The position numbers and the translations under genes were made by a program. The notes beneath the pieces are model-generated. The model saw only the letters and a program-made list of their open reading frames with translations. It was not told the DNA's origin and did not search any database. DNA of 64,000 nucleotides, taken from contig JAJYGQ010000003.1 of NCBI GenBank assembly GCA_021785065.1, positions 2,470-66,469 of the forward strand, written 5' to 3'. Position 1 is the stretch's first letter. Each line of letters opens with the position of its first letter. This DNA is from a bacterium. Lineage in GTDB: Bacteria > Patescibacteriota > Minisyncoccia > Phycocordibacterales > JAKAEA01. Positions 4,286 through 58,987 of the stretch are shown piece by piece.

Positions 4286-5557
4286 ATGGACGAACAACAA
4301 AATATTCCCTCTCAAAATTTACCAACCAAACCACGTCAGCCTTTTTTCACACCTCGATTTTGGGCGATACTAGGTAGTAATGCCCTCGTAACGCTTATTA
4401 TTTTAGGCGCTATTGCCGGTATACTCTATGCTAAACGCGCCGCTATTGAAAACTATATTCATCCAGCTGCTACACCGCTTTCTCTAGCACAGGGCCATGA
4501 TCAAGCGGTGATAGCCGCTGTAAAAGAGGCTAATCCCGCGGTGGTTTCAATTATTATCACCAAGAATGTGCCGATAATGAAAGAGTATATACAAAATGAA
4601 CAAATTCCCAGTCCGTTTGGACTTTTTGGCAACGGCAGTTTCTCTATTCAGGTGCCGCAATACTATCAAGATGGCACACAACAACAACAAGTAGGTGGCG
4701 GATCAGGATTTTTTGTCTCATCTAATGGTCTTATCGTGACCAACGATCACGTGGTGTCCGATCCTAATGCCCAGTACACGGTCTATACCAATGATGGCCA
4801 GGAGCATACCGCTAAAGTAATAGCGCAAGACGCAACCGACGACATTGCATTTCTTAAAATTTCGGGTACTGGCTATCCGTATCTTACTTTCGATAATTCA
4901 AGCGCGTTGCAGCTTGGTCAGAGCGTGATCGCTATTGGTAATGCACTCGGTCAGTTTCGTAATACTGTTTCTGTGGGAGTTGTGTCCGGTCTCTCTCGTT
5001 CTATTGTGGCTGGTGATGTTGTTACTGGTGGCACGGAGTCATTGCCGCAAGTGATTCAAACTGATGCCGCTATCAACCCCGGTAATTCCGGCGGCCCACT
5101 TCTCGATCTTTTGGGTAAAGTGGTTGGTGTTAACGTCGCGGTAGCGCAGGGTTCGCAGGGTATTGGTTTTGCTCTTCCAGGAAATATGATCAAAGAAGCG
5201 GTGGCTTCGGTAGAAGCAAATGGTACGATAACCTTCCCGTTTCTTGGTGTGCGCTATATACCGATTACACCAACAGTGGCAAAAGATAAAAAACTTTCTG
5301 TAACCTATGGGGCCTTAATTGCCGCGGGAAGTGGTACGAGTCAACCGGCCGTTGTTGTTGGTTCGCCGGCGGCTAAAGCTGGTTTAGTAGCTGGTGATAT
5401 CATCTTAGATTTTAATGGTACGAAGTTGACTAATGACAATAATCTTACCGATCTCGTGCGGGCGCAAAAAGTTGGCGCTGTTGCGACCTTGACGGTGTTG
5501 CATAATGGCAAGCAAGAAACTGTTACAGTAACGCTCGGTAAAAAAGTAGAACACTAA
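4286..5557 (+). CDS. htrA: HtrA/DegP-family serine protease with PDZ domain
   Basis: Trypsin-like motifs (TNDHVV, GNSGGPL), C-terminal PDZ-like region, N-terminal TM. Confidence 0.85.
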   Translation: MDEQQNIPSQNLPTKPRQPFFTPRFWAILGSNALVTLIILGAIAGILYAKRAAIENYIHPAATPLSLAQGHDQAVIAAVKEANPAVVSIIITKNVPIMKEYIQNEQIPSPFGLFGNGSFSIQVPQYYQDGTQQQQVGGGSGFFVSSNGLIVTNDHVVSDPNAQYTVYTNDGQEHTAKVIAQDATDDIAFLKISGTGYPYLTFDNSSALQLGQSVIAIGNALGQFRNTVSVGVVSGLSRSIVAGDVVTGGTESLPQVIQTDAAINPGNSGGPLLDLLGKVVGVNVAVAQGSQGIGFALPGNMIKEAVASVEANGTITFPFLGVRYIPITPTVAKDKKLSVTYGALIAAGSGTSQPAVVVGSPAAKAGLVAGDIILDFNGTKLTNDNNLTDLVRAQKVGAVATLTVLHNGKQETVTVTLGKKVEH

Positions 5558-43019: not shown

Positions 43020-43047
43020 TTGACGCAAAAACCATTTCGAGTATAAT
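43020..43047 (+). promoter_or_regulatory. strong sigma70-like promoter (TTGACG-16-TATAAT) upstream of 23S rRNA
   Basis: Hexamers read directly about 270 nt upstream of the 23S 5' end. Confidence 0.6.
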
Positions 43048-43857
43048 AGCTCCTACCTGAATATGTTGATCAAAAAATTCCACTGCCGCTCGTAAAGGCC
43101 CTTAACAACGGCTTTTATGTCCGCGGCAACGCGGATTTTTTGTTTTCCGAACGATTGTTGCTTGAAAAATACATTCCGTCGCGGCACGACTTTCTAGCAT
43201 CGGCAACGATGTTAGAGGGGTCTTTATAGTGTCGTAGACGGGCAGGTAAAACAATACTGTTATTGAGAATCTTTGATTCCAGATAACAGAGTATATTAAT
43301 TGTGGTTCTTACATTTCCTGACGGGAATGTAAGGGCATATGGTGGATGCCTTGGCTTCAAAAGGCGATGAAGGACGTAGCATAACTGCGATAAGCTTCGG
43401 GGAGGTGTCGAGCAACCGTCAATCCGAAGATTTCCGAATGAGGAAACTCCCGCGTTTTAACGCGGACGTTTGCGCTTGACGCAAACGAGTATACCCAGGG
43501 AAGTAAAACATTTCAGTACCTGGAGGAATAGAGACCAATCGCGCAAGCGAATGGAATTTCCTAAGTAGCGGCGAGCGAAAAGGAATGAGCCCAAACCCGA
43601 TTCCACCTTTGCTGTTTGACGAGAGTCGAATAGCGGAGGTGCGATCGGGGGTTGTAAGGCGGTAACGTCACTTTTATAGTGAGAAGAGTTACAAAATGAG
43701 ATAGTAGCGGAACGTGCTGGAAAGCGCGGCCCCAGAGGGTAATGGCCCCGTACGCGAAACTAACTCATCTCTTTTGTTACCGTTCTTGAGTACCTCGAGA
43801 CACGAATGGCTCGGGGGAATCCAGCGGAACTAACCGCTAAGGCTAAATACTTTTGAA

Positions 43858-43897
<40 letters not shown>

Positions 43898-43967
43898 CAG
43901 CCCGGTGAGGGCGGTGAAATAGACCTGAAACCATATGCCTACAAGGAGTCAGAGCGGGGTACCACTT

Positions 43968-44385
43968 TGCGTGGTATGACGTTCTCAAAATAAAATTAAG
44001 AAAATTTATCTTTCATTCATCAAAATTTTATTGCTGAATATATACACTTTTATTGTGTACTATGTTTATGTAATACAAAGTTTGATGGATACAACCTTCT
44101 ACATAGGTTATACGAATTCAATTGATCGAAGATTGAAAGAACATAACTATAGTAAGGGTCGCTTTACCAGGAAACATATTCCCTGGAAACTTGTTTACTA
44201 TGAAGCATTTAACGACAAATTTCTAGCGAAACGTCGAGAAAAGATGCTCAAAGAAACCAGTAGGGCTTGGCAAGAATTACGAAAACGTCTCGGTGTTAAT
44301 TATCGAGAAAAAAAATCGCAAACAAATCCAGCCCAAGATATATTATTTTCTAAGTAAGTTTATAATTGAGGATGTCATAGTGCCT
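43968..44385 (+). mobile_element. about 415-nt AT-rich insertion in 23S helix-25 region (IVS-like or intron) carrying a GIY-YIG ORF
   Basis: Flanked by a perfect 13-bp helix GGGGTACCACTTT / AAAGTGGTACCCC; E. coli-equivalent position about 540-550, the classic IVS site. Confidence 0.6.
44031..44357 (+). CDS. GIY-YIG family nuclease (small stand-alone type) encoded inside the 23S insertion
   Basis: YVYVIQS...FYIGYTNSIDRRLKEHN plus downstream Arg/Glu catalytic residues. Confidence 0.75.
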   Translation: MLNIYTFIVYYVYVIQSLMDTTFYIGYTNSIDRRLKEHNYSKGRFTRKHIPWKLVYYEAFNDKFLAKRREKMLKETSRAWQELRKRLGVNYREKKSQTNPAQDILFSK

Positions 44386-46099
44386 AAAGTGGTACCCCGT
44401 CATGGCGTGCCTATTGAAGAATGAGCCAACGAGTTCTAGCATCCTGCGGGCTAAAGGCGCGAGCCTGGAGCCGCAGGGAAACCGAGTGTGAATAGCGCGT
44501 TTGTAGGATGCTAGAGACCCGAAGCCAGAGCGATCTACCCATGTGCAGGGTGAATGGTGCCGAAAGGCACCAGGAGGCCCGAACCGATAAGCCGTTCAAC
44601 ACTTTCGGATGACATGTGGGTCGAAGTGAAAAGCTAATCGAGCCTGGTAATAGCTGGTTCTCTCCGAAATAGCTTTTGGGTTAGCGTCGAATGTTCCCAG
44701 GGGGGGTAGAGCACTGGAAGGTCTCGACAGGGCGAAAGCTCGCGAGACCTATCAAACTCCGAATACTCTTGGTTAAAAGTTCGGCAGTTAGACTGTGGGG
44801 GCTAAGCTCCATTGGTCAAAAGGGAAACAGCCCAGATCTCCAGTTAAGGTCCCTAAATTTATGCTAAGTGCACTTAAGGTGGTAGAAATTCTCTAACAAT
44901 GAGGAGGTTGGCTTAGAAGCAGCCATCCTTTAAAGAAAGCGTAACAGCTCACTCATCGAGAGTTTCCGCGCCGAAGATAATCGGGGCTAAGCATAGTACC
45001 GAAACTGAGGACATTATTTTTCTTCGGAAAAATAGCGTGGTAGGAGAGTTTTCGTGTTGCGATGAAGGCGAAGGGGTGACCCACGCTGGAGCGTCACGAA
45101 GTAAGAATGTTGGCACAAGTAACCGCAATCAGTGTGAAAACCACTGACGCCGAAAGATCAAGGTTTCCTTGGCAATGACAATCAGCCAAGGGTTAGTCGG
45201 TCCTAAGGGGATGGCGAACGCCGCACCCGATGGATACATGGTTAATATTCCATGACTTTTGTGTTAGGCGATGAGAGGACGGAGTGCAGTATCCCGAGCA
45301 CCTTATTGGATTGGTGTTCGTGTCGTGAGAGTGGCGTGTAGGAAAATCCGCACGCGGCCGTAAGGCACATTCAAGCGAAGCGAAGCTGTTGAGGGCGACC
45401 TCGACCAATTCGGGAAAGCGCGCTTCCAAGAAAAGTCTCTAAGCTTACTAACACAGAAACCGTACCGCAAACCGACACAGGTGATCAGCTCGAGTAGAGC
45501 AAGGCGAACGAATGAGAAGTCCCCAAGGAACTCGGCAAAAAAGCGGCCGTAACTTCGGAATAAGGCCTGCCTATCGCAAGATAGGCCGCAGCTAAAGTAT
45601 GCTTGGCAACTGTTTACCAAAAACACAGCTCCCTGCGAACTCGAAAGAGGATGTATAGGGGGTGACACTTGACCAATGCCAGAAGGTCAACTATCGGCGG
45701 TGCGATTATATCAAGCTGACTGGTACAAGCCCTGGTGAATGTCGGTCGTAACTATAACGATCCTAAGGTAGCGAAATTCCTTGTCAGGTAAGTTCTGACG
45801 CGCACGAATAGTGTCATGACTGAGCAACTGTCTCGGGGACCCGTTCGGTGAAAATACAATACCGGTGAAGATGCCGGTTACCTGCAGCTAGACGAAAAGA
45901 CCCCGGAAGCTTTACTGCAACTTGGTATTGAGCGTACGTTGTTGATGCGTAGCATAGGTGGGAGAGGTTGAGGGCATGATCTCGGTTGTGCCGGACTCGT
46001 CAGTGAAATACCACTCTTCATAGGTGTACGTTCTAACCCGCGCGGCAAAAACGCGCGGAAACAGTACTAGGCGGGCAGTTTTAGTGGGGCGCTATCCTC

Positions 46100-47059
46100 A
46101 ACTTTGGGCGCCTCAGATTTGGTAAATGGTTCAAACGACCCTCCACCAAGTCAAATTATAAAATCAGGGGGACTTTAGTCCGTAAGGGCTATCGAAAAGT
46201 TAGCTATATGCTGGAACATCCGAGTATCTTTATGTACTCGCTCAAGTTTTTTGAGCAGTGAAAATCGTAAAGTGCGGACAATCAGCAGGAAATGCTCCTA
46301 TTCTAATATTTTTATTCAGCATAGAAGCAAATCCTCAGAGACTACACGCTAACCTCCGCGAAAGCGGATGATGATATAGTCCGATCTTTGTGGCGACACA
46401 AAGCTTACTACATATAGTAAGACCATTAATGAACACTAAGGAAATTCGGGAGTACAAAAACACTCTCAAACTTACTGACATTCAAAAATCTATTCTCGTC
46501 GGAACATTGTTGGGCGATGGACATTTAGAGACGCAAGATAACGGTAAAACGTATCGTCTCAAAATTGAACATCAGTTAGCCCAGCAAGACTACACGGAAT
46601 GGCTTCACAGCCACTTCAAAGAGTGGGTTAGAAATGGAATGTATAGAAAAGTAAAATCACAAGGTAAAGAATATGTCGGATTTACCACATATTCGCACGG
46701 CGCCTTCAGATTTTACGCTCAGCAATTTTACACTGAGAAAAAGAAACATATTCCCAGAATGATCAGTAAATTGCTAAATCCATTAGTTGTTGCGATCTGG
46801 TTTATGGATGATGGTTCGTGGAAATCAGAAAAACACGAAACCTTCATAATACATACGCTCGGATTCACAAAAGAAGATCTTACGTTGATACAAGATTCGT
46901 TTAGAAAATTGTTCAATATAGAAACTTCACTTCATCGACAAAAAGAAAGATATTGGAGGTTGTATATACGATCAAGTTCCGCAAAAGAATTTGAAAAACT
47001 AATACAACCTTACACATCACTCGTTGATTCTATGAAGAAAAAGATGGGTAACAATAAGC
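46100..47059 (+). mobile_element. group I intron in 23S rRNA (domain V, before CTAAAGAGTAACGGAGG) encoding a LAGLIDADG endonuclease
   Basis: Exon sequence resumes exactly at CTAAAGAGTAACGGAGGAG; intron contains AGAGACTACACG (P7/J8-7-like); ORF stop codon lies in the downstream exon. Confidence 0.7.
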
Positions 47060-47070
47060 CTAAAGAGTAA
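46390..47070 (+). CDS. double-motif LAGLIDADG homing endonuclease
   Basis: ILVGTLLGDGHL and VVAIWFMDDGS motifs about 100 aa apart. Confidence 0.85.
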   Translation: MATQSLLHIVRPLMNTKEIREYKNTLKLTDIQKSILVGTLLGDGHLETQDNGKTYRLKIEHQLAQQDYTEWLHSHFKEWVRNGMYRKVKSQGKEYVGFTTYSHGAFRFYAQQFYTEKKKHIPRMISKLLNPLVVAIWFMDDGSWKSEKHETFIIHTLGFTKEDLTLIQDSFRKLFNIETSLHRQKERYWRLYIRSSSAKEFEKLIQPYTSLVDSMKKKMGNNKPKE

Positions 47071-47392
47071 CGGAGGAGTCTATTAAGGTCGGCTAGGCGC
47101 GAATGGAAACCGTGCCGATAGGGCATTGCCACAAGCCGGCTTGACTGCAAGAGGTAAGTCTCGAGCAGGTGCGAAAGCAGAGCAAAGTGAACCGACCATC
47201 CGCATTAGATGCGGTGGAAGATTATCTGACAAAAGCTACTCCGGGGATAACAGGCTGGTACTGCCTAAGCGTCCATAGCGACGGCAGTGTTCGGCACCTC
47301 GATGTCGGCTCAAGATATCCTCCTGGTGGAGAAGCTAGGAAGGGTTTGGCTGTTCGCCAATTAAAATCTTACGCGAGCTGGGTTCAGACCGT

Positions 47393-47714
47393 TCAGCGCT
47401 CAAATCGGAATTTTGGAATTTTCTGAAATTTTTGACATTGAGCATTGAACCGTCTGAATCCCGAGGTTTAGTTTCAGTTCCACAACTATCTGTAACTTGT
47501 TCACGGCGGTCCCGTCGAGTAATCGGCGGTGACACAGTCAACTTATATCGGTGAAGCCCATATCGTGGGAACACGAGTGCTGGTGACACCTAGGGAATTT
47601 TGTAAATTTTTACAAATGCCCGTAGAGACTACACGTTGACTATCTTTCTCGGAGTTTATAGACCGAGTGAGATAAAAATATAGTCCATTGCACGGAGTGA
47701 TCCGTGGAAACAAG
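47393..47714 (+). mobile_element. ORF-less group I intron in 23S at the L2593-equivalent site (between GACCGT and CGTGAGACAG)
   Basis: Exon context GCGAGCTGGGTTCAGACCGT | ... | CGTGAGACAGGTTGGTC matches the I-CreI/L2593 homing site; contains AGAGACTACACG core-like element. Confidence 0.65.
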
Positions 47715-47856
47715 CGTGAGACAGGTTGGTCTCCTATCTGCTGCAGGCGTTGATTCTTGAAGAGATTTGACTCTAGTACGAGAGGACCGAGTTGAACTGA
47801 CCTCTGGTGTGGCAGCTCTGGCGCCAGCTGGACCGCTGCGTAGCTATGTCGGGAAC

Positions 47857-47889
<33 letters not shown>

Positions 47890-48072
47890 GACTCTAAGAT
47901 TAGGAATCGTTAAGACCCGTGGGAGATGACCACGTTGATAGGCACCAGGTGTACGCACAGTAATGTGTTGAGCCGAGGTGTACTAATTGGTCGATCTTGT
48001 CAGGAAATGTACGAAGCACAAAATATACTCTGTTACCTGGAATTACAAAGAAATTAAAACATTGAATGTTGT

Positions 48073-48186
48073 GTTCTGGTGGTTCGTCGCGGAGGTCACA
48101 CCTGATCTCATTCCGAACTCAGAAGTTAAGCTCCGTTGAGGCGATGGTACCGTCTATGGATGGGAGAGTAGCTCGCCGCCGGAACA
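48073..48186 (+). rRNA. rrf: 5S ribosomal RNA
   Basis: CCTGATCTCATTCCGAACTCAGAAGTTAAGC and GGGAGAGTAGCTCGCCGCC blocks. Confidence 0.9.
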
Positions 48187-54679: not shown

Positions 54680-54957
54680 GTCTCCTACTCTCTATAGGGG
54701 AGTTGGTTCTTTGAAACTTGAAATACTTGAGATGGGTGGAGCCGGTAAAAACGGCTGCATCCAGCAAGTACCCAAATTATTCTTACAAAAATAATTCCAA
54801 ATAAAATAAGTCAGTTTTATTCGAGCAATCAAACTCTACGAATCTAAATTATTGTTAGGCATAAGAACATATTAAAGCGATAGTTTTCACTAGCGTCTTT
54901 TATTTTGTTCCGTTTGACTCGTCAAGAATCTTATTCGATTCTTCGCGAGGATAATTT

Positions 54958-56555
<1,598 letters not shown>

Positions 56556-56783
56556 TTCAAGGTGAATTTCGTCAATCATCACTTGATGATTAGACTGACG
56601 GAGTCGATATTGTGGATCTCGTACGAGTCCATAATGGAACGCGAATTCCTAAAGCGCTGACCGCAGGGAAAGACCGCAAATAAACGGAACAAAATAAAGG
56701 ACGTCGCTTCTTTATTCGGAAAAATCGCCTTAATAGGGCGGTTTTTCTTTTATTAGGTCATATTTTTAGGGTACAGAAAAGTA

Positions 56784-56811
56784 TTGACAAATATTTTATA
56801 TATGCTATTAT
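56784..56811 (+). promoter_or_regulatory. sigma70-like promoter (TTGACA-16-TATTAT) for the lytic transglycosylase gene
   Basis: Hexamers read directly about 80 nt upstream of ATG 56893. Confidence 0.5.
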
Positions 56812-56892
56812 ACACCATGGCGCATACGGGATAGAGAGACAACGAACTTATTGTTTTGTTTTGTTGTTTTTCTTTTTTAGTGGGGTATTCTT

Positions 56893-57345
56893 ATGCGTCA
56901 GTTCTTTCTCATTTCGGGGATGGTGTTTCTCATTTCTCATGCAGCTGCTTTTGGTAGCTACAGTAGGAATCGATGGGAGATCATCCACAGGCTTATTCCT
57001 GCTTTGATACAAGTGGAATCGAGCGGGAATAATTGGAAGGTTGGAGACAAAAAACGCTTCTATAAGGCGTATGGTTGTCTCCAAATAAGGGAGCTGATGT
57101 GTATCGACGTTGACAAACGTTGGCACACACATTACAGGGCCTCTGATTGCTTAGGCAATCGGAAGCTCTCGATTCTCATCTGCCTGCGGTACTACCGTTT
57201 GTACGATACCGCCCGGGTGGTCGGTCACCGACCAACTCTTGAGGACTTGGCCCGCATGTGGAATGGCGGACCGTACGGTTTCAAAAAACGGAGTACTGTA
57301 GGCTACTGGAGGAAGGTCCGCAAAGTCCTTCACTCTCAGGGATGA
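56893..57345 (+). CDS. small secreted lysozyme-like/lytic transglycosylase (SLT-domain) protein
   Basis: Signal peptide; IQVESSGNNW...AYGCLQIRE matches the SLT catalytic Glu-Ser and GLMQ(I) motifs. Confidence 0.6.
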   Translation: MRQFFLISGMVFLISHAAAFGSYSRNRWEIIHRLIPALIQVESSGNNWKVGDKKRFYKAYGCLQIRELMCIDVDKRWHTHYRASDCLGNRKLSILICLRYYRLYDTARVVGHRPTLEDLARMWNGGPYGFKKRSTVGYWRKVRKVLHSQG

Positions 57346-57358
57346 GTTCTTGATATAG

Positions 57359-57392
57359 GCCGTGACTAGACCACACTAGTCACGGCTTTTTT
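57359..57392 (+). terminator. rho-independent terminator
   Basis: GCCGTGACTAG-accaca-CTAGTCACGGC followed by TTTTTT. Confidence 0.8.
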
Positions 57393-57458
57393 CTTGGTTG
57401 GTTTTTGAAAATCTTTTGCCAAGTGGCGTTTTTTCTGCTATATTTCTCCAGCGTAGAT

Positions 57459-57532
57459 GGGCGTATAGCTCAGGTGGTTAGAGCGCGTCACTGATAATGA
57501 CGAGGTCCCACGTTCGAGTCGTGGTACGCCCA
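57459..57532 (+). tRNA. tRNA-Ile (anticodon GAT)
   Basis: GGGCGTATAGCTCAGGTGGTTAGAGCGCGTCACTGATAATGACGAGGTCCCACGTTCGAGTCGTGGTACGCCCA; cloverleaf with anticodon loop cTGATAa. Confidence 0.9.
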
Positions 57533-58987
57533 CATTCCTCGGAAATCGATGTTTTTAGGCGCAGTGGCGAGTACTTGATAGACGCTTTTAAATTGAGCTG
57601 AAGCCACCGTTTGGTTTTTGATAGAAGCGTTCGAGAGTACTTTTCCGAGCATATTTCGCTTTTCTTCCTCGGTGTAGTTCAAATACGTTTCCGCGGCCTT
57701 GTTGCCCTCTAAAAGAACTTCTTTAATCTGTTCGAGAGTAAAAGGCGACACACCACCCCTAGCTTGGATTTCGGCGATTTGCTTCTTGATAATAACCCGC
57801 TTGTTTTCAATCTCCTGAAGCTTGATTTTGTAGACTTCTTCCCGGATTAATTGAGAACTGTAGCCATCGGCCAGAGTTAATTCTTTCTTGAGCAGATCGT
57901 CCAACTCCGCAGTCAGAGTTCCCGTTGAATTTTCAACATACGTGATTTTGCCTTTATTTTCTTCCTTATACATATCATAGGAGAATTCGATCAATTCTTC
58001 TCTGAATTTTAATTTGAGAAAAAGGTTGGATAGAAGAGCGTGAACATCATCGGATTTCAGATACTTTTTGTGTTCTTCGCAGTTACCCCTGCCATTGGTG
58101 CAGTAGTAATATTGGTGGCCCCGTTGGGTGTCCACGGTTAACGCGCAGCCGCAGGAGGCGCATTTCAGGAATCCCTGAGCGGCGTAGAAGTACTTTTTCG
58201 GGCGAGGGTGATTCCGGCCGGCGAGAACGTCTTGCACGGTGTCAAACAGTTTTTGAGATATGATCGGTGTATGTTTGCCGGGGTAAATTTTGCCGTCACG
58301 AGGCATGAGGCCGGTGTAGAAGCGGTTGAGGAGCAAGCGCTGTAACTGACCTTTTTCGATTTTGTTGCCGGTTTTGGTTCGTAAACCTTCTTTGTAGAGA
58401 ATGTCGCTGGTTTGCTTCAGCGTGTGAGTGCCTGTGGCGTAGAGCTCAAATGCGCGGGTGATAAACGGAGCATACTTTTTGTCCACGACGACGGTTTTGG
58501 TAGTCTTGTCGTTAAGATATCCCAGAGGCGCTTGATTGGGCCATTCACCACGTTCCAGTTTTGCTCGGTTGCCTCGTTTGACGTTGACGCTAAGGTCACG
58601 AATGTATTGATTGGCCATGGCCTGCTCAATGCTCATGACGATGACGTTGTCGTTAGGGTAGTAGCTTTTATCAAACGTCCGAATGCACTTAATCTGATTG
58701 TTTTGGAGGAGCCATTGAATCTGACCGCCATCCACTGGATTTCTCGTTAAACGGTCAATTTTCCAGCAGAGAATGGCATCGGCTTTGCCGGCGGTGATCA
58801 TTTTGATCATGTCATTGAAGATGGGCCGGCCGGGCTCTTTAGCCGATTTGCTTTCCTTGAGAATGGCAATTACGTCTAAGCCATTAGCTTTGACGATTTT
58901 CTGGAGCTCGTCTTCTTGCGATGCCAGCGACAAAACCTGTTTATCTTCAGTATCAGTGGATTTTCTACAATAGAGAATAAATTTCAT
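57488..58987 (-). CDS. large serine recombinase (integrase), C-terminus encoded on the complement of tRNA-Ile
   Basis: Catalytic YCRKSTDTEDKQ...SLASQ...DRLTRN resolvase domain, recombinase domain, zinc ribbon CASCGC...YYYC; last 15 codons and TGA stop overlap the tRNA anticodon and T arms. Confidence 0.85.
   Translation of the reverse strand: MKFILYCRKSTDTEDKQVLSLASQEDELQKIVKANGLDVIAILKESKSAKEPGRPIFNDMIKMITAGKADAILCWKIDRLTRNPVDGGQIQWLLQNNQIKCIRTFDKSYYPNDNVIVMSIEQAMANQYIRDLSVNVKRGNRAKLERGEWPNQAPLGYLNDKTTKTVVVDKKYAPFITRAFELYATGTHTLKQTSDILYKEGLRTKTGNKIEKGQLQRLLLNRFYTGLMPRDGKIYPGKHTPIISQKLFDTVQDVLAGRNHPRPKKYFYAAQGFLKCASCGCALTVDTQRGHQYYYCTNGRGNCEEHKKYLKSDDVHALLSNLFLKLKFREELIEFSYDMYKEENKGKITYVENSTGTLTAELDDLLKKELTLADGYSSQLIREEVYKIKLQEIENKRVIIKKQIAEIQARGGVSPFTLEQIKEVLLEGNKAAETYLNYTEEEKRNMLGKVLSNASIKNQTVASAQFKSVYQVLATAPKNIDFRGMWAYHDSNVGPRHYQ

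What the first reader, a model, noticed from the sequence alone, without database searches (positions are those of the whole stretch)
43968..44385. GIY-YIG nuclease ORF inside a helix-25 insertion of 23S rRNA
The insertion sits in the loop of a 13-bp perfect helix (GGGGTACCACTTT / AAAGTGGTACCCC) at the E. coli-equivalent helix-25 site. This is the classic intervening-sequence (IVS) position, normally cut out by RNase III without religation. Here it is AT-rich, about 415 nt, and encodes a 108-aa GIY-YIG nuclease rather than the usual IVS protein. No obvious group I core was seen. It is an unusual combination of an IVS-type site with a nuclease cargo.
Basis: partly seen in the sequence, partly recalled or inferred. 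Interest (0 to 1): 0.6.

Follow-up and report, generated by a model that had tools for sequence, protein, structure and literature searches.

The report
Hairpin-bracketed nuclease gene inside 23S rRNA
A small, intact nuclease gene flanked by a long RNA hairpin sits at the tip of helix 25 of the 23S rRNA gene of a Saccharibacteria (CPR) bacterium; it is not an intron, and it belongs to a widespread but little-described family of such cassettes in the rRNA, tRNA and pilin genes of these bacteria.

Summary
A 443-nt segment (43956-44398) replaces the 12-nt tip of 23S helix 25 (E. coli 541-552). It starts and ends with a perfect 13-14-bp inverted repeat that extends into a predicted ~54-bp rod. It encodes a GIY-YIG protein (Pfam E=1.2e-15).

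- **The gene.** The start is probably GTG 44055 (100 aa), not the 108-aa TTG ORF. The protein is a stand-alone UPF0213/Slx1-type catalytic domain with no DNA-binding domain. It is under strong purifying selection (dN/dS ~0.08) in syntenic relatives.
- **Not an intron.** Rfam finds no intron here even at E<=10. The same setting detects a weak group I intron elsewhere in this gene.
- **A family.** The host is a Candidatus Saccharibacteria MAG. Homologous ~300-nt cassettes (arm, -10 box 6 nt before the start codon, ORF, arm) occur across CPR bacteria at H25, 16S helix 6, other rRNA hairpins and spacers, and fused to pilin genes. A sister clade sits upstream of tRNA-Ser.

The most likely reading is an IVS-type insertion whose arms extend helix 25 in the pre-rRNA. 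RNase III excision is inferred, not shown. GIY-YIG ORFs in non-intron CPR rRNA insertions are already published, so this is a new member of a known kind. The cassette architecture was not found in the literature searched.

The parts
43319..48004 (+). 23S rRNA gene (4686 nt, about 1770 nt of insertions) that hosts the element
   Evidence: Rfam LSU_rRNA_bacteria, 2181 bits, model positions 1-2925. Insertion map against E. coli rrlB.
43956..43968 (+). 5' arm of the bracketing stem (GGGGTACCACTTT). C43955 also pairs.
   Evidence: Sequence. Pairs with 44386-44398. Across 12 H25 cassettes, 91% of cells are paired and 19 of 22 pairs show compensatory changes.
43969..44054 (+). AT-rich leader (GC 0.23). 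It contains the 5' strand of the second helix, TATGACGTTCTCAA (43975-43988), and further pairing to the trailer.
   Evidence: The second helix covaries in L004, L007 and L008.
44043..44048 (+). -10-like hexamer TACACT ending 6 nt before the start codon (candidate promoter of a leaderless mRNA)
   Evidence: A -10-like hexamer ends exactly 6 nt before the start codon in 20 of 53 bracketed cassettes, against 0-6 at the other offsets. There is no SD enrichment. The window copy is a weak match. Inferred, not shown.
44055..44357 (+). GIY-YIG nuclease gene, 100 aa, GTG start, TAA stop (the mechanical ORF from TTG 44031 gives 108 aa)
   Evidence: Pfam PF01541 E = 1.2e-15. Start aligned to the ATG of all homologues. 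PDB 1ZG2 UPF0213 E = 1.6e-9. AF2 pLDDT 83 with Foldseek hits to 1ZG2 and Slx1. dN/dS about 0.08.
44358..44385 (+). Trailer with the 3' strand of the second helix, TTGAGGATGTCATA (44366-44379)
44386..44398 (+). 3' arm of the bracketing stem (AAAGTGGTACCCC). G44399 also pairs.
   Evidence: In L004, L007 and L008 this arm carries G.U-forming changes (AAAGTGGTGCTCC).

Best explanation
The feature is an IVS-type (non-intron) insertion: a hairpin-bracketed gene cassette that replaces the tip of 23S helix 25 in a Candidatus Saccharibacteria genome.

**Shown**
- Its two terminal arms are complementary.
- It carries an intact gene under purifying selection for a stand-alone UPF0213/Slx1-type GIY-YIG nuclease.
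- It is an enlarged, vertically inherited member of a CPR-wide family of ~300-nt cassettes. These have the order arm, -10 box 6 nt before the start codon, ~85-aa ORF, arm.
- The arms travel with the ORF between sites.

**Inferred**
- When the 23S precursor is transcribed, the arms pair and stack on the base of helix 25. The two halves of the rRNA are then held in their normal geometry and the cassette protrudes from the ribosome surface as a long double-stranded rod.
- That rod (22 to more than 50 bp) is a typical RNase III substrate. The cassette is most probably cut out without religation, leaving a fragmented but functional 23S, as for the classical helix-25 IVS.
- The nuclease is probably made from a separate, nearly leaderless transcript started by the internal -10 box.
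- The nuclease acts on DNA structures rather than on a specific sequence. It serves the spread or retention of the cassette, or some host function.
For: - **Site and stem.**
- **No ribozyme.** No Rfam intron at gathering score or at E<=10. The same permissive setting finds a 31.9-bit group I intron in the 322-nt insert at 47393-47714.
- **Stem selection.** Twelve H25 cassettes from Saccharibacteria, Parcubacteria and Microgenomates give 91% paired cells. Nineteen of 22 pairs have compensatory changes, 0 of 500 shuffles reach this, and slid controls give 44-53%. G.U pairs recur at three positions.
- **Rod length.** Basal rods of 21-59 bp are predicted in all H25 copies.
- **Orientation.** Every rRNA-embedded copy seen (about 35 loci) is co-oriented with the rRNA.
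- **Gene reality.** Pfam, PDB and AF2/Foldseek hits. The catalytic Y, Y, R, H/N and E residues are invariant. dN/dS is about 0.08 with saturated dS, in hosts whose flanking 23S is only 81-94% identical.
- **Family and arms.**. The same arm sequences occur at different sites: CCCCTCACCTTTTT in L014 domain I and in L020/L060 H25, and CCCGCACCTTTT at 23S, ITS and 16S sites.
- **-10 box.** Found at a fixed 6-nt distance in 20 of 53 cassettes.
- **Decay products.** An ORF-less H25 remnant with the same arms and leader in L014, and a premature stop in L060.
- **Literature.** CPR rRNA insertions are reported as absent from transcripts (PMC9698310, citing Brown 2015). GIY-YIG ORFs occur only in non-intron CPR insertions (PMC11270868).
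Against: - No RNA data were available, so excision, fragmentation and the internal transcription start are all inferred.
- No RNase III gene is visible in this 64-kb window (signature search negative). The rest of the genome was not available.
- The window copy has a GTG start and only a weak -10 match (TACACT). No full sigma-70 promoter is found in the insert.
- The excess of G.U over A.C mismatches in stems is modest (29 against 14 in 54 stems, not all independent). A DNA-level role of the inverted repeat is therefore not excluded.
- In pilin-fused copies the stem cannot serve productive RNA excision. The arms therefore have some role other than RNA processing in at least some contexts.
- Helix 25 is the eukaryotic ES7 site, so retention of the insert is sterically possible.
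Confidence: 0.7

Rival explanations
1. Retained expansion segment. The cassette is never cut out. The rod stays attached to helix 25 on the surface of the mature 50S subunit, as ES7 does in eukaryotes. The ORF is expressed only from its own promoter.
For: Helix 25 is a surface helix that tolerates very large expansions (established knowledge of ES7). The arms restore the helix geometry. An internal -10 box would make expression independent of processing.
Against: Long perfect dsRNA is normally cleaved by RNase III in bacteria. All characterised bacterial H25 and H45 insertions of this anatomy are excised. Metatranscriptomes reportedly lack CPR rRNA insertions (PMC9698310, citing Brown 2015). 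An AT-rich 417-nt loop carrying a translatable ORF on every ribosome would be costly.
Confidence: 0.2
2. Active mobile DNA element. The inverted repeats are terminal repeats or cruciform-forming sites recognised by the encoded Slx1-like structure-specific nuclease. The nuclease moves or copies the cassette to new hairpin-tip sites. The RNA stem is a by-product that makes insertions harmless.
For: - The arms travel with the ORF to at least eight kinds of site, including protein-coding (pilin) contexts where RNA excision is useless.
- L014 holds a full cassette in domain I and a decayed one in H25 with near-identical arms.
- The fold is closest to UPF0213 and to Slx1, a branched-DNA nuclease.
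- Decay products exist (L060, L014).
- The insert is AT-rich relative to the host.
Against: - No near-identical cassettes at different sites were found.
- There are no target-site duplications.
- No relatives occur in 2.9 million viral contigs.
- In the window clade the cassette has stayed at one site under purifying selection while synonymous sites saturated. That looks like vertical inheritance.
- The protein tree roughly follows host groups for the H25 copies.
Confidence: 0.3
3. Unrecognised intron. The insert is removed and the 23S halves are religated, either by an unknown ribozyme or by a protein-dependent pathway, possibly using the encoded nuclease.
For: Other insertions in the same gene are group I introns. 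The ORF-in-a-loop layout resembles intron-encoded endonucleases.
Against: - There is no covariance-model hit even at E<=10, while a weak intron in the same gene is found.
- The site is a variable hairpin tip, not a conserved core position.
- Compact relatives have only about 20-40 nt outside the arms and ORF, which leaves no room for a ribozyme.
- No bulge-helix-bulge motif is present in the stem.
- The TIGR01453 intron-endonuclease model scores 15.7 against a cut-off of 56.
Confidence: 0.05

Closest known systems
GIY-YIG ORFs in non-intron insertion sequences of CPR rRNA genes (Brown et al. 2015; Tsurumaki et al. 2024, PMC11270868)
   Same: The host group is CPR. The insertion is in an rRNA gene, has no group I or II signature, and encodes PF01541. 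That paper reports 15 such ORFs in 23S and 15 in 16S, and notes non-intron insertions at the classical IVS sites.
   Different: - That paper reports almost no endonuclease-bearing insertions in Saccharibacteria (64 of 66 were short).
- It reports no preferred site for GIY-YIG ORFs.
- The text I searched does not mention inverted repeats.
- Here H25 and 16S helix 6 are recurrent sites.
- The ORF is bracketed by conserved arms and preceded by a fixed -10 box.
Classical 23S rRNA intervening sequences at helix 25 and helix 45 (Salmonella, Proteus, Yersinia, Campylobacter)
   Same: The helix-25 tip position is the same. A tetraloop is replaced by an extended, highly paired stem-loop. There is no ribozyme.
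   Different: Classical H25 IVSs are about 90-150 nt and carry no ORF. Excision by RNase III is shown for them and only inferred here.
ORF-bearing IVS of Leptospira and Coxiella (S23p / 23S_rRNA_IVP, PF05635)
   Same: It is an IVS with a long terminal stem and a small ORF in the loop.
   Different: Those sit in helix 45 and encode a four-helix-bundle protein. This one sits in helix 25 and encodes a nuclease domain.
GIY-YIG homing endonucleases of group I introns and free-standing phage genes (I-TevI, I-BmoI, SegA-G)
   Same: The catalytic superfamily is the same. The gene is embedded in a host gene in a way that avoids harm.
   Different: - Those enzymes are about 250 aa and have a linker and DNA-binding domains that confer site specificity.
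- This protein is the catalytic domain alone.
- Its fold and sequence are closer to UPF0213 and Slx1.
UPF0213 / YhbQ-YazA small GIY-YIG proteins and the Slx1 nuclease domain
   Same: Best sequence hit 1ZG2 at E = 1.6e-9 and best fold hits. The size is similar and the domain stands alone.
   Different: To my knowledge those are ordinary chromosomal genes, not embedded in stable-RNA genes and not bracketed by inverted repeats.
REP/RAYT and MITE-like palindromic elements
   Same: A small gene or remnant is associated with conserved palindromic arms. ORF-less derivatives exist.
   Different: The nuclease family differs (HUH tyrosine transposase against GIY-YIG). Those exist in many dispersed copies, whereas here there are one or a few copies per genome. 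This is an analogy only.

Membership tests
RNase III-excised 23S rRNA intervening sequence (IVS) | Located at the tip of a variable helix (H9, H25 or H45), replacing the terminal loop | tested here: met
   Replaces E. coli nt 541-552, the tip of H25. The empty-site comparison is L073.
RNase III-excised 23S rRNA intervening sequence (IVS) | Ends are complementary and form an extended double-stranded stem | tested here: met
   14 bp perfect, and a 54-bp rod in the MFE fold with z = -10.3. Covariation across 12 copies.
RNase III-excised 23S rRNA intervening sequence (IVS) | Absent from mature rRNA, with the 23S left in fragments without religation | not testable with these tools
   No RNA data. 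Only a literature statement that CPR insertions are missing from transcripts (PMC9698310).
RNase III-excised 23S rRNA intervening sequence (IVS) | Host encodes RNase III | tested here: inconclusive
   No RNase III signature in the 64-kb window. The rest of the genome was not examined.
Group I intron | Conserved catalytic core detectable by covariance model | tested here: not met
   No RF00028 hit at gathering score or at E<=10. Positive controls in the same gene score 77.9 and 31.9 bits.
Group I intron | Insertion in a conserved functional rRNA position | tested here: not met
   The site is a variable hairpin tip.
GIY-YIG nuclease superfamily (PF01541), UPF0213/Slx1 branch | Profile match above the curated cut-off | tested here: met
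   58 bits against a cut-off of 22.6, E = 1.2e-15. 1ZG2 E = 1.6e-9.
GIY-YIG nuclease superfamily (PF01541), UPF0213/Slx1 branch | Catalytic motif residues conserved (GIY Tyr, YIG Tyr, Arg, His/Asn, Glu) | tested here: met
   Y5, Y16, G18, R26, H30, N31, E50 and E62 are invariant in 13 homologues.
GIY-YIG nuclease superfamily (PF01541), UPF0213/Slx1 branch | Three-stranded sheet plus helices fold | tested here: met
   AF2 pLDDT 83 with element order E-E-H-E-H-H. Foldseek hits 1ZG2 and Slx1 at probability 1.0.
GIY-YIG nuclease superfamily (PF01541), UPF0213/Slx1 branch | Nuclease activity | not testable with these tools
   Needs biochemistry.
GIY-YIG homing endonucleases (I-TevI type) | Catalytic domain linked to a sequence-specific DNA-binding domain | tested here: not met
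   The protein is 100 aa. Residues 80-100 have low confidence and no domain. TIGR01453 scores 15.7 against a cut-off of 56.
CPR rRNA insertion sequences encoding GIY-YIG (Tsurumaki 2024) | CPR host; insertion of at least 100 bp relative to E. coli in an rRNA gene; not group I or II; ORF with PF01541 | tested here: met
   Host named Candidatus Saccharibacteria in the record titles of the syntenic relatives; the window's own ORF lies on MAG assembly GCA_027328845.1. Remaining criteria.

The most novel reading that the evidence does not exclude
The window element may belong to an undescribed class of minimal selfish element in CPR bacteria.

- The element is a ~300-nt cassette consisting only of two palindromic arms, a leaderless promoter and a stand-alone Slx1/UPF0213-type GIY-YIG nuclease.
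- It colonises positions where an insertion can be neutralised after expression: tips of rRNA hairpins (removed as dsRNA), pre-tRNA leaders, and prepilin leader peptides (removed by prepilin peptidase).
- Its nuclease would act on the cruciform or hairpin DNA formed by its own arms.
- Decay of such cassettes would be the origin of many short ORF-less IVSs. Candidates are the L014 H25 remnant and perhaps the window hairpin 43596-43649.
Probability: 0.3. Interest if true: 0.8.

Novelty: new member of a known kind. Interest (0 to 1): 0.5.

Why it matters
Classical rRNA intervening sequences have no known origin or means of spread. Here an IVS-type insertion carries a conserved nuclease gene, and its arms recur with the gene at many different sites. 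ORF-less remnants with the same arms sit at the same sites. Together these give a concrete, testable hypothesis for where IVSs come from.

The case also bears on how CPR bacteria, which have a single rRNA operon, tolerate heavily interrupted rRNA genes. It affects annotation and primer design for CPR rRNA as well. If the nuclease is structure-specific and tied to its own palindrome, it would be a new, very small type of mobile element.

Tried and rejected
- **Intron search.** Permissive Rfam search of the insert (E<=10) gave only two meaningless hits. The intron reading was rejected.
- **Intron-endonuclease model.** The NCBIfam model scored far below its cut-off.
- **Promoter scan.** The full sigma-70 promoter scan found nothing inside the insert. 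It found only the strong rRNA promoter-like site at 43020-43047.
- **Recent transposition.** All-against-all blastn of about 160 cassettes found every pair with >=80% identity at the same site or contig. There is no evidence of recent movement.
- **Other copies in the window.** tblastn for further GIY-YIG copies found none. An RNase III signature search in six frames found none. A crude search for solo cassette-like stems found none (all).
- **Viral carriage.** No relatives in IMG/VR viral contigs.
- **G.U against A.C asymmetry.** With symmetric scoring this was 13 against 5, then 29 against 14 with more loci. The result is suggestive only.
- **RNAduplex.** Runs on long flanks over-extended the stems and were replaced by an ungapped stem search.
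- **Pairwise alignment.** Alignment to E. coli failed downstream of the intron until the two big inserts were removed.
- **Assembly chimera.** Rejected on the evidence of independent contigs.

Full report
**1. What is there**

The window carries a 23S rRNA gene at 43319-48004 (Rfam, 2181 bits). It is followed by 5S, and by an unlinked 16S 6.8 kb downstream. The 23S is 4686 nt against a model length of 2925.

Alignment to E. coli rrlB (L089), made after removing the two largest inserts, maps the extra sequence:
- 12 nt at E. coli position 229;
- 89 nt near position 292;
- the element under study;
- a 959-nt group I intron at about position 2262;
- 322 nt at position 2593.

The element replaces E. 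coli nt 541-552 (ACGC-UUAG-GCGU), the terminal 4 bp and tetraloop of helix 25. Its arms are 43956-43968 and 44386-44398. The remaining rRNA has GC 0.51 and the whole window 0.46.

The helix does not stop at 13 bp. C43955-G44399 pair. A partly paired 6x6 internal loop follows, and then a 14-bp helix (43975-43988 with 44366-44379). The MFE structure is a 54-bp rod with z = -10.3.

**2. Host and reality**

- The identical protein (P0001) lies on an NCBI MAG contig and on two ENA contigs.
- Proteins 70-73% identical lie at the same place (L10, L7/L12, a 208-aa ORF, then 23S) in four other assemblies. Each lies inside the 23S gene.
- Record titles call the syntenic relatives Candidatus Saccharibacteria, a CPR/Patescibacteria lineage.
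- The flanking 23S of these relatives is only 81-94% identical to the window. The cassette has therefore been kept at this site across deep divergence.

**3. Not an intron**

Rfam finds no intron in the insert at gathering score or at E<=10. The same permissive setting recovers a full-length but sub-threshold group I match (31.9 bits, E = 1.8e-6) in the 322-nt insert at 47393-47714. The search was therefore sensitive enough in this very gene. Compact relatives have only 20-40 nt besides arms and ORF, which leaves no room for a ribozyme.

**4. The gene**

- Pfam GIY-YIG scores 58 bits.
- The nearest solved relatives are the UPF0213 proteins BH0048 (1ZG2, E = 1.6e-9) and EF2693, followed by Slx1.
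- An AF2 model (pLDDT 83) matches 1ZG2 and Slx1 nuclease domains, and matches I-TevI only weakly.
- The protein is the catalytic domain alone.
- All homologues begin MYYVYVI, which aligns with GTG 44055. The database gene call, which starts at a later ATG (90 aa), would lack the GIY strand.
- Y5, Y16, G18, R26, H30, N31, E50 and E62 are invariant.
- Against L004 and L008, dN/dS is about 0.08 with synonymous sites near saturation.

**5. The stem is selected**

Among the four clade members the second helix changes by compensatory substitutions: TATGAC/GTCATA, TATAG/CTATA and TATCGC/GCGATA. The 3' arm acquires G.U-forming changes.

Across 12 helix-25 copies from Saccharibacteria, Parcubacteria and Microgenomates, taken in register from the rRNA junctions:
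- 91% of cells pair;
- 19 of 22 pairs show changes on both sides;
- no shuffle out of 500 reaches this;
- slid registers give 44-53%;
- G.U pairs recur at three positions.

**6. A family of cassettes**

Protein-guided scans of one genome per species and of metagenomes returned 160 loci. BLAST against the window rRNAs and ARAGORN place them as follows.

| Site | Loci |
|---|---|
| 23S H25, same position as the window | L013, L018, L020, L038, L060, L096, L132 |
| 23S domain I hairpin | L014, L153 |
| Other 23S sites | L015, L073/76/81, L131, L155 |
| 16S helix 6 | nine loci |
| 16S near nt 440 | L107 |
| Spacer after 16S | five loci |

Further points:
- A separate protein clade (about 80 aa) lies directly upstream of tRNA-Ser or tRNA-Tyr.
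- In about 60 loci the ORF is tightly bracketed by a 12-32-bp inverted repeat (span 280-330 nt). The repeat has a shared core, CC-N-CAC(C)TTTT / AAAA(G)GTG-N-GG.
- The same arm sequences occur at different sites, so the arms belong to the cassette.
- Every rRNA-embedded copy is co-oriented with the rRNA.
- A -10-like hexamer ends exactly 6 nt before the start codon in 20 of 53 bracketed cassettes, against 0-6 at other offsets. No Shine-Dalgarno signal is present. This is the geometry of a leaderless mRNA.
- Decay products exist. L014 has an ORF-less 108-nt H25 insert with the same arms and leader. L060 has a premature stop.
- The window copy is an enlarged version (443 nt) with the same stem pattern as L018, L038 and L096.

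**7. Mechanism**

What is shown:
- position, pairing and covariation;
- absence of a ribozyme;
- an intact, selected nuclease gene;
- cassette architecture and its distribution.

What is inferred:
- The arms restore helix 25 in the precursor.
- The rod is cut by RNase III without religation. This rests on analogy with classical H25 IVSs and on the report that CPR insertions are missing from transcripts (PMC9698310, citing Brown 2015).
- The ORF is expressed from its own start.
- The nuclease is structure-specific.

I put 0.7 on the overall reading and about 0.55 on excision specifically.

**8. Rivals**

- *Retained expansion segment (0.2).* This cannot be excluded without RNA data.
- *Active mobile DNA element (0.3).* This reading is compatible with the main one and is supported by the arms travelling with the ORF. 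It is weakened by the absence of recent copies, of viral carriage and of target duplications.
- *Unknown intron (0.05).*

**9. Comparison with the literature**

Tsurumaki et al. 2024 (PMC11270868) found 30 GIY-YIG ORFs in CPR rRNA insertions, none in introns. They suggested these lie outside homing and found no preferred site. They reported that Saccharibacteria insertions are almost all short.

The present case is therefore a new member of a published kind. I did not find the following described in the searched literature:
- the arms;
- the fixed -10 box;
- the recurrent H25 and 16S helix-6 sites;
- the remnants;
- the tRNA and pilin contexts.

That library is incomplete, and Brown 2015 itself could not be read.

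**10. Limits**

- The loci were retrieved by similarity to the window protein, so site frequencies are biased.
- The neighbour-joining tree of 80-aa proteins is weakly resolved.
- The G.U excess over A.C is modest (29 against 14).
- All expression and processing claims are inferences.

Noticed in passing
window 46100-47058: A 959-nt group I intron (RF00028, 77.9 bits at 46133-46403) carries a 226-aa LAGLIDADG_2 ORF (46390-47070, Pfam E = 1.6e-43). It is inserted at about E. coli 23S nt 2262/2263. It is absent from the relative L004.
   Followed up: partly
window 47393-47714: A 322-nt ORF-less insertion lies at E. coli 23S nt 2593. It scores below the Rfam threshold as a full-length group I intron (31.9 bits, E = 1.8e-6).
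   Followed up: partly
window 43596-43649 (within the 89-nt insert 43616-43704): A 54-nt hairpin (dG -39.6) has the stem CCACCTTTGC/GCGGAGGTG, which resembles the cassette arms. It sits exactly where L014 and L153 carry complete GIY-YIG cassettes (after CCCAAACC, before GGGGTTGTAGG). It may be an ORF-less remnant.
   Followed up: partly
window 43319-48184 and 54956-57533: The rRNA genes are unlinked and in unusual order. 23S-5S comes first. Then, 6.8 kb downstream on the same strand, come 16S and tRNA-Ile(GAT), with no 23S after them. A strong promoter-like site (TTGACG-16-TATAAT) lies at 43020-43047.
   Followed up: no
L021, L024, L025, L027, L029 and about 27 more loci; for example L029 4940-5350: A sister clade of ~80-aa GIY-YIG ORFs ends 5-15 nt upstream of a tRNA-Ser gene on the same strand (tRNA-Tyr in two loci). 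In 22 of 32 loci the ORF is preceded by a duplicate of the tRNA's first 11 nt followed by two GC-rich palindromes. This looks like insertion into the 5' part of class II tRNA genes with regeneration of the gene.
   Followed up: partly
L011 5001-5759, L016 5010-5609, L030, L039, L054: The GIY-YIG domain is fused in frame to the N-terminus of type IV pilin-like proteins (Pfam GIY-YIG + N_methyl + T2SSG). The 3' cassette arm encodes the ..KSGKG|FTLIE prepilin cleavage motif. Prepilin peptidase could therefore release the nuclease as a giant leader peptide.
   Followed up: partly
L014 5547-5654: Helix 25 of this Patescibacteria 23S holds a 108-nt ORF-less insert. It has the same arms (TCCCTCACCTTTT/AAATGGTGAGGGA) and leader (GTGCATTTCAT) as full cassettes. 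The same gene carries a full cassette in domain I (4965-5259).
   Followed up: yes
L060 3386-3571: The H25 cassette ORF has a premature stop (61 aa; GAA to TAA relative to L020). This is either a decaying copy or a sequencing error.
   Followed up: no
L073, L076, L081 (4965-5281 in each): A MAG labelled Bacillota has three rRNA operons. Each has the same GIY-YIG cassette (32-bp stem, GTG start) at another 23S site, while its helix 25 is a short native hairpin. The family may therefore reach outside CPR, or the label may be wrong.
   Followed up: no
L004 7739-8089: This close relative lacks the window's LAGLIDADG intron. It has a 352-nt insertion at E. coli 23S nt 1931 that the window lacks. 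Intron content therefore turns over while the H25 cassette is kept.
   Followed up: no
L012 4977-5278, L041 407-710, L037, L040, L047, L092-L109 (several): Many bracketed cassettes lie outside any RNA gene recognised by Rfam or ARAGORN. In L012 the host sequence just outside the arms (CGAGTT / TGACTCG) is itself complementary. These cassettes may sit in hairpins of unannotated structured RNAs.
   Followed up: no
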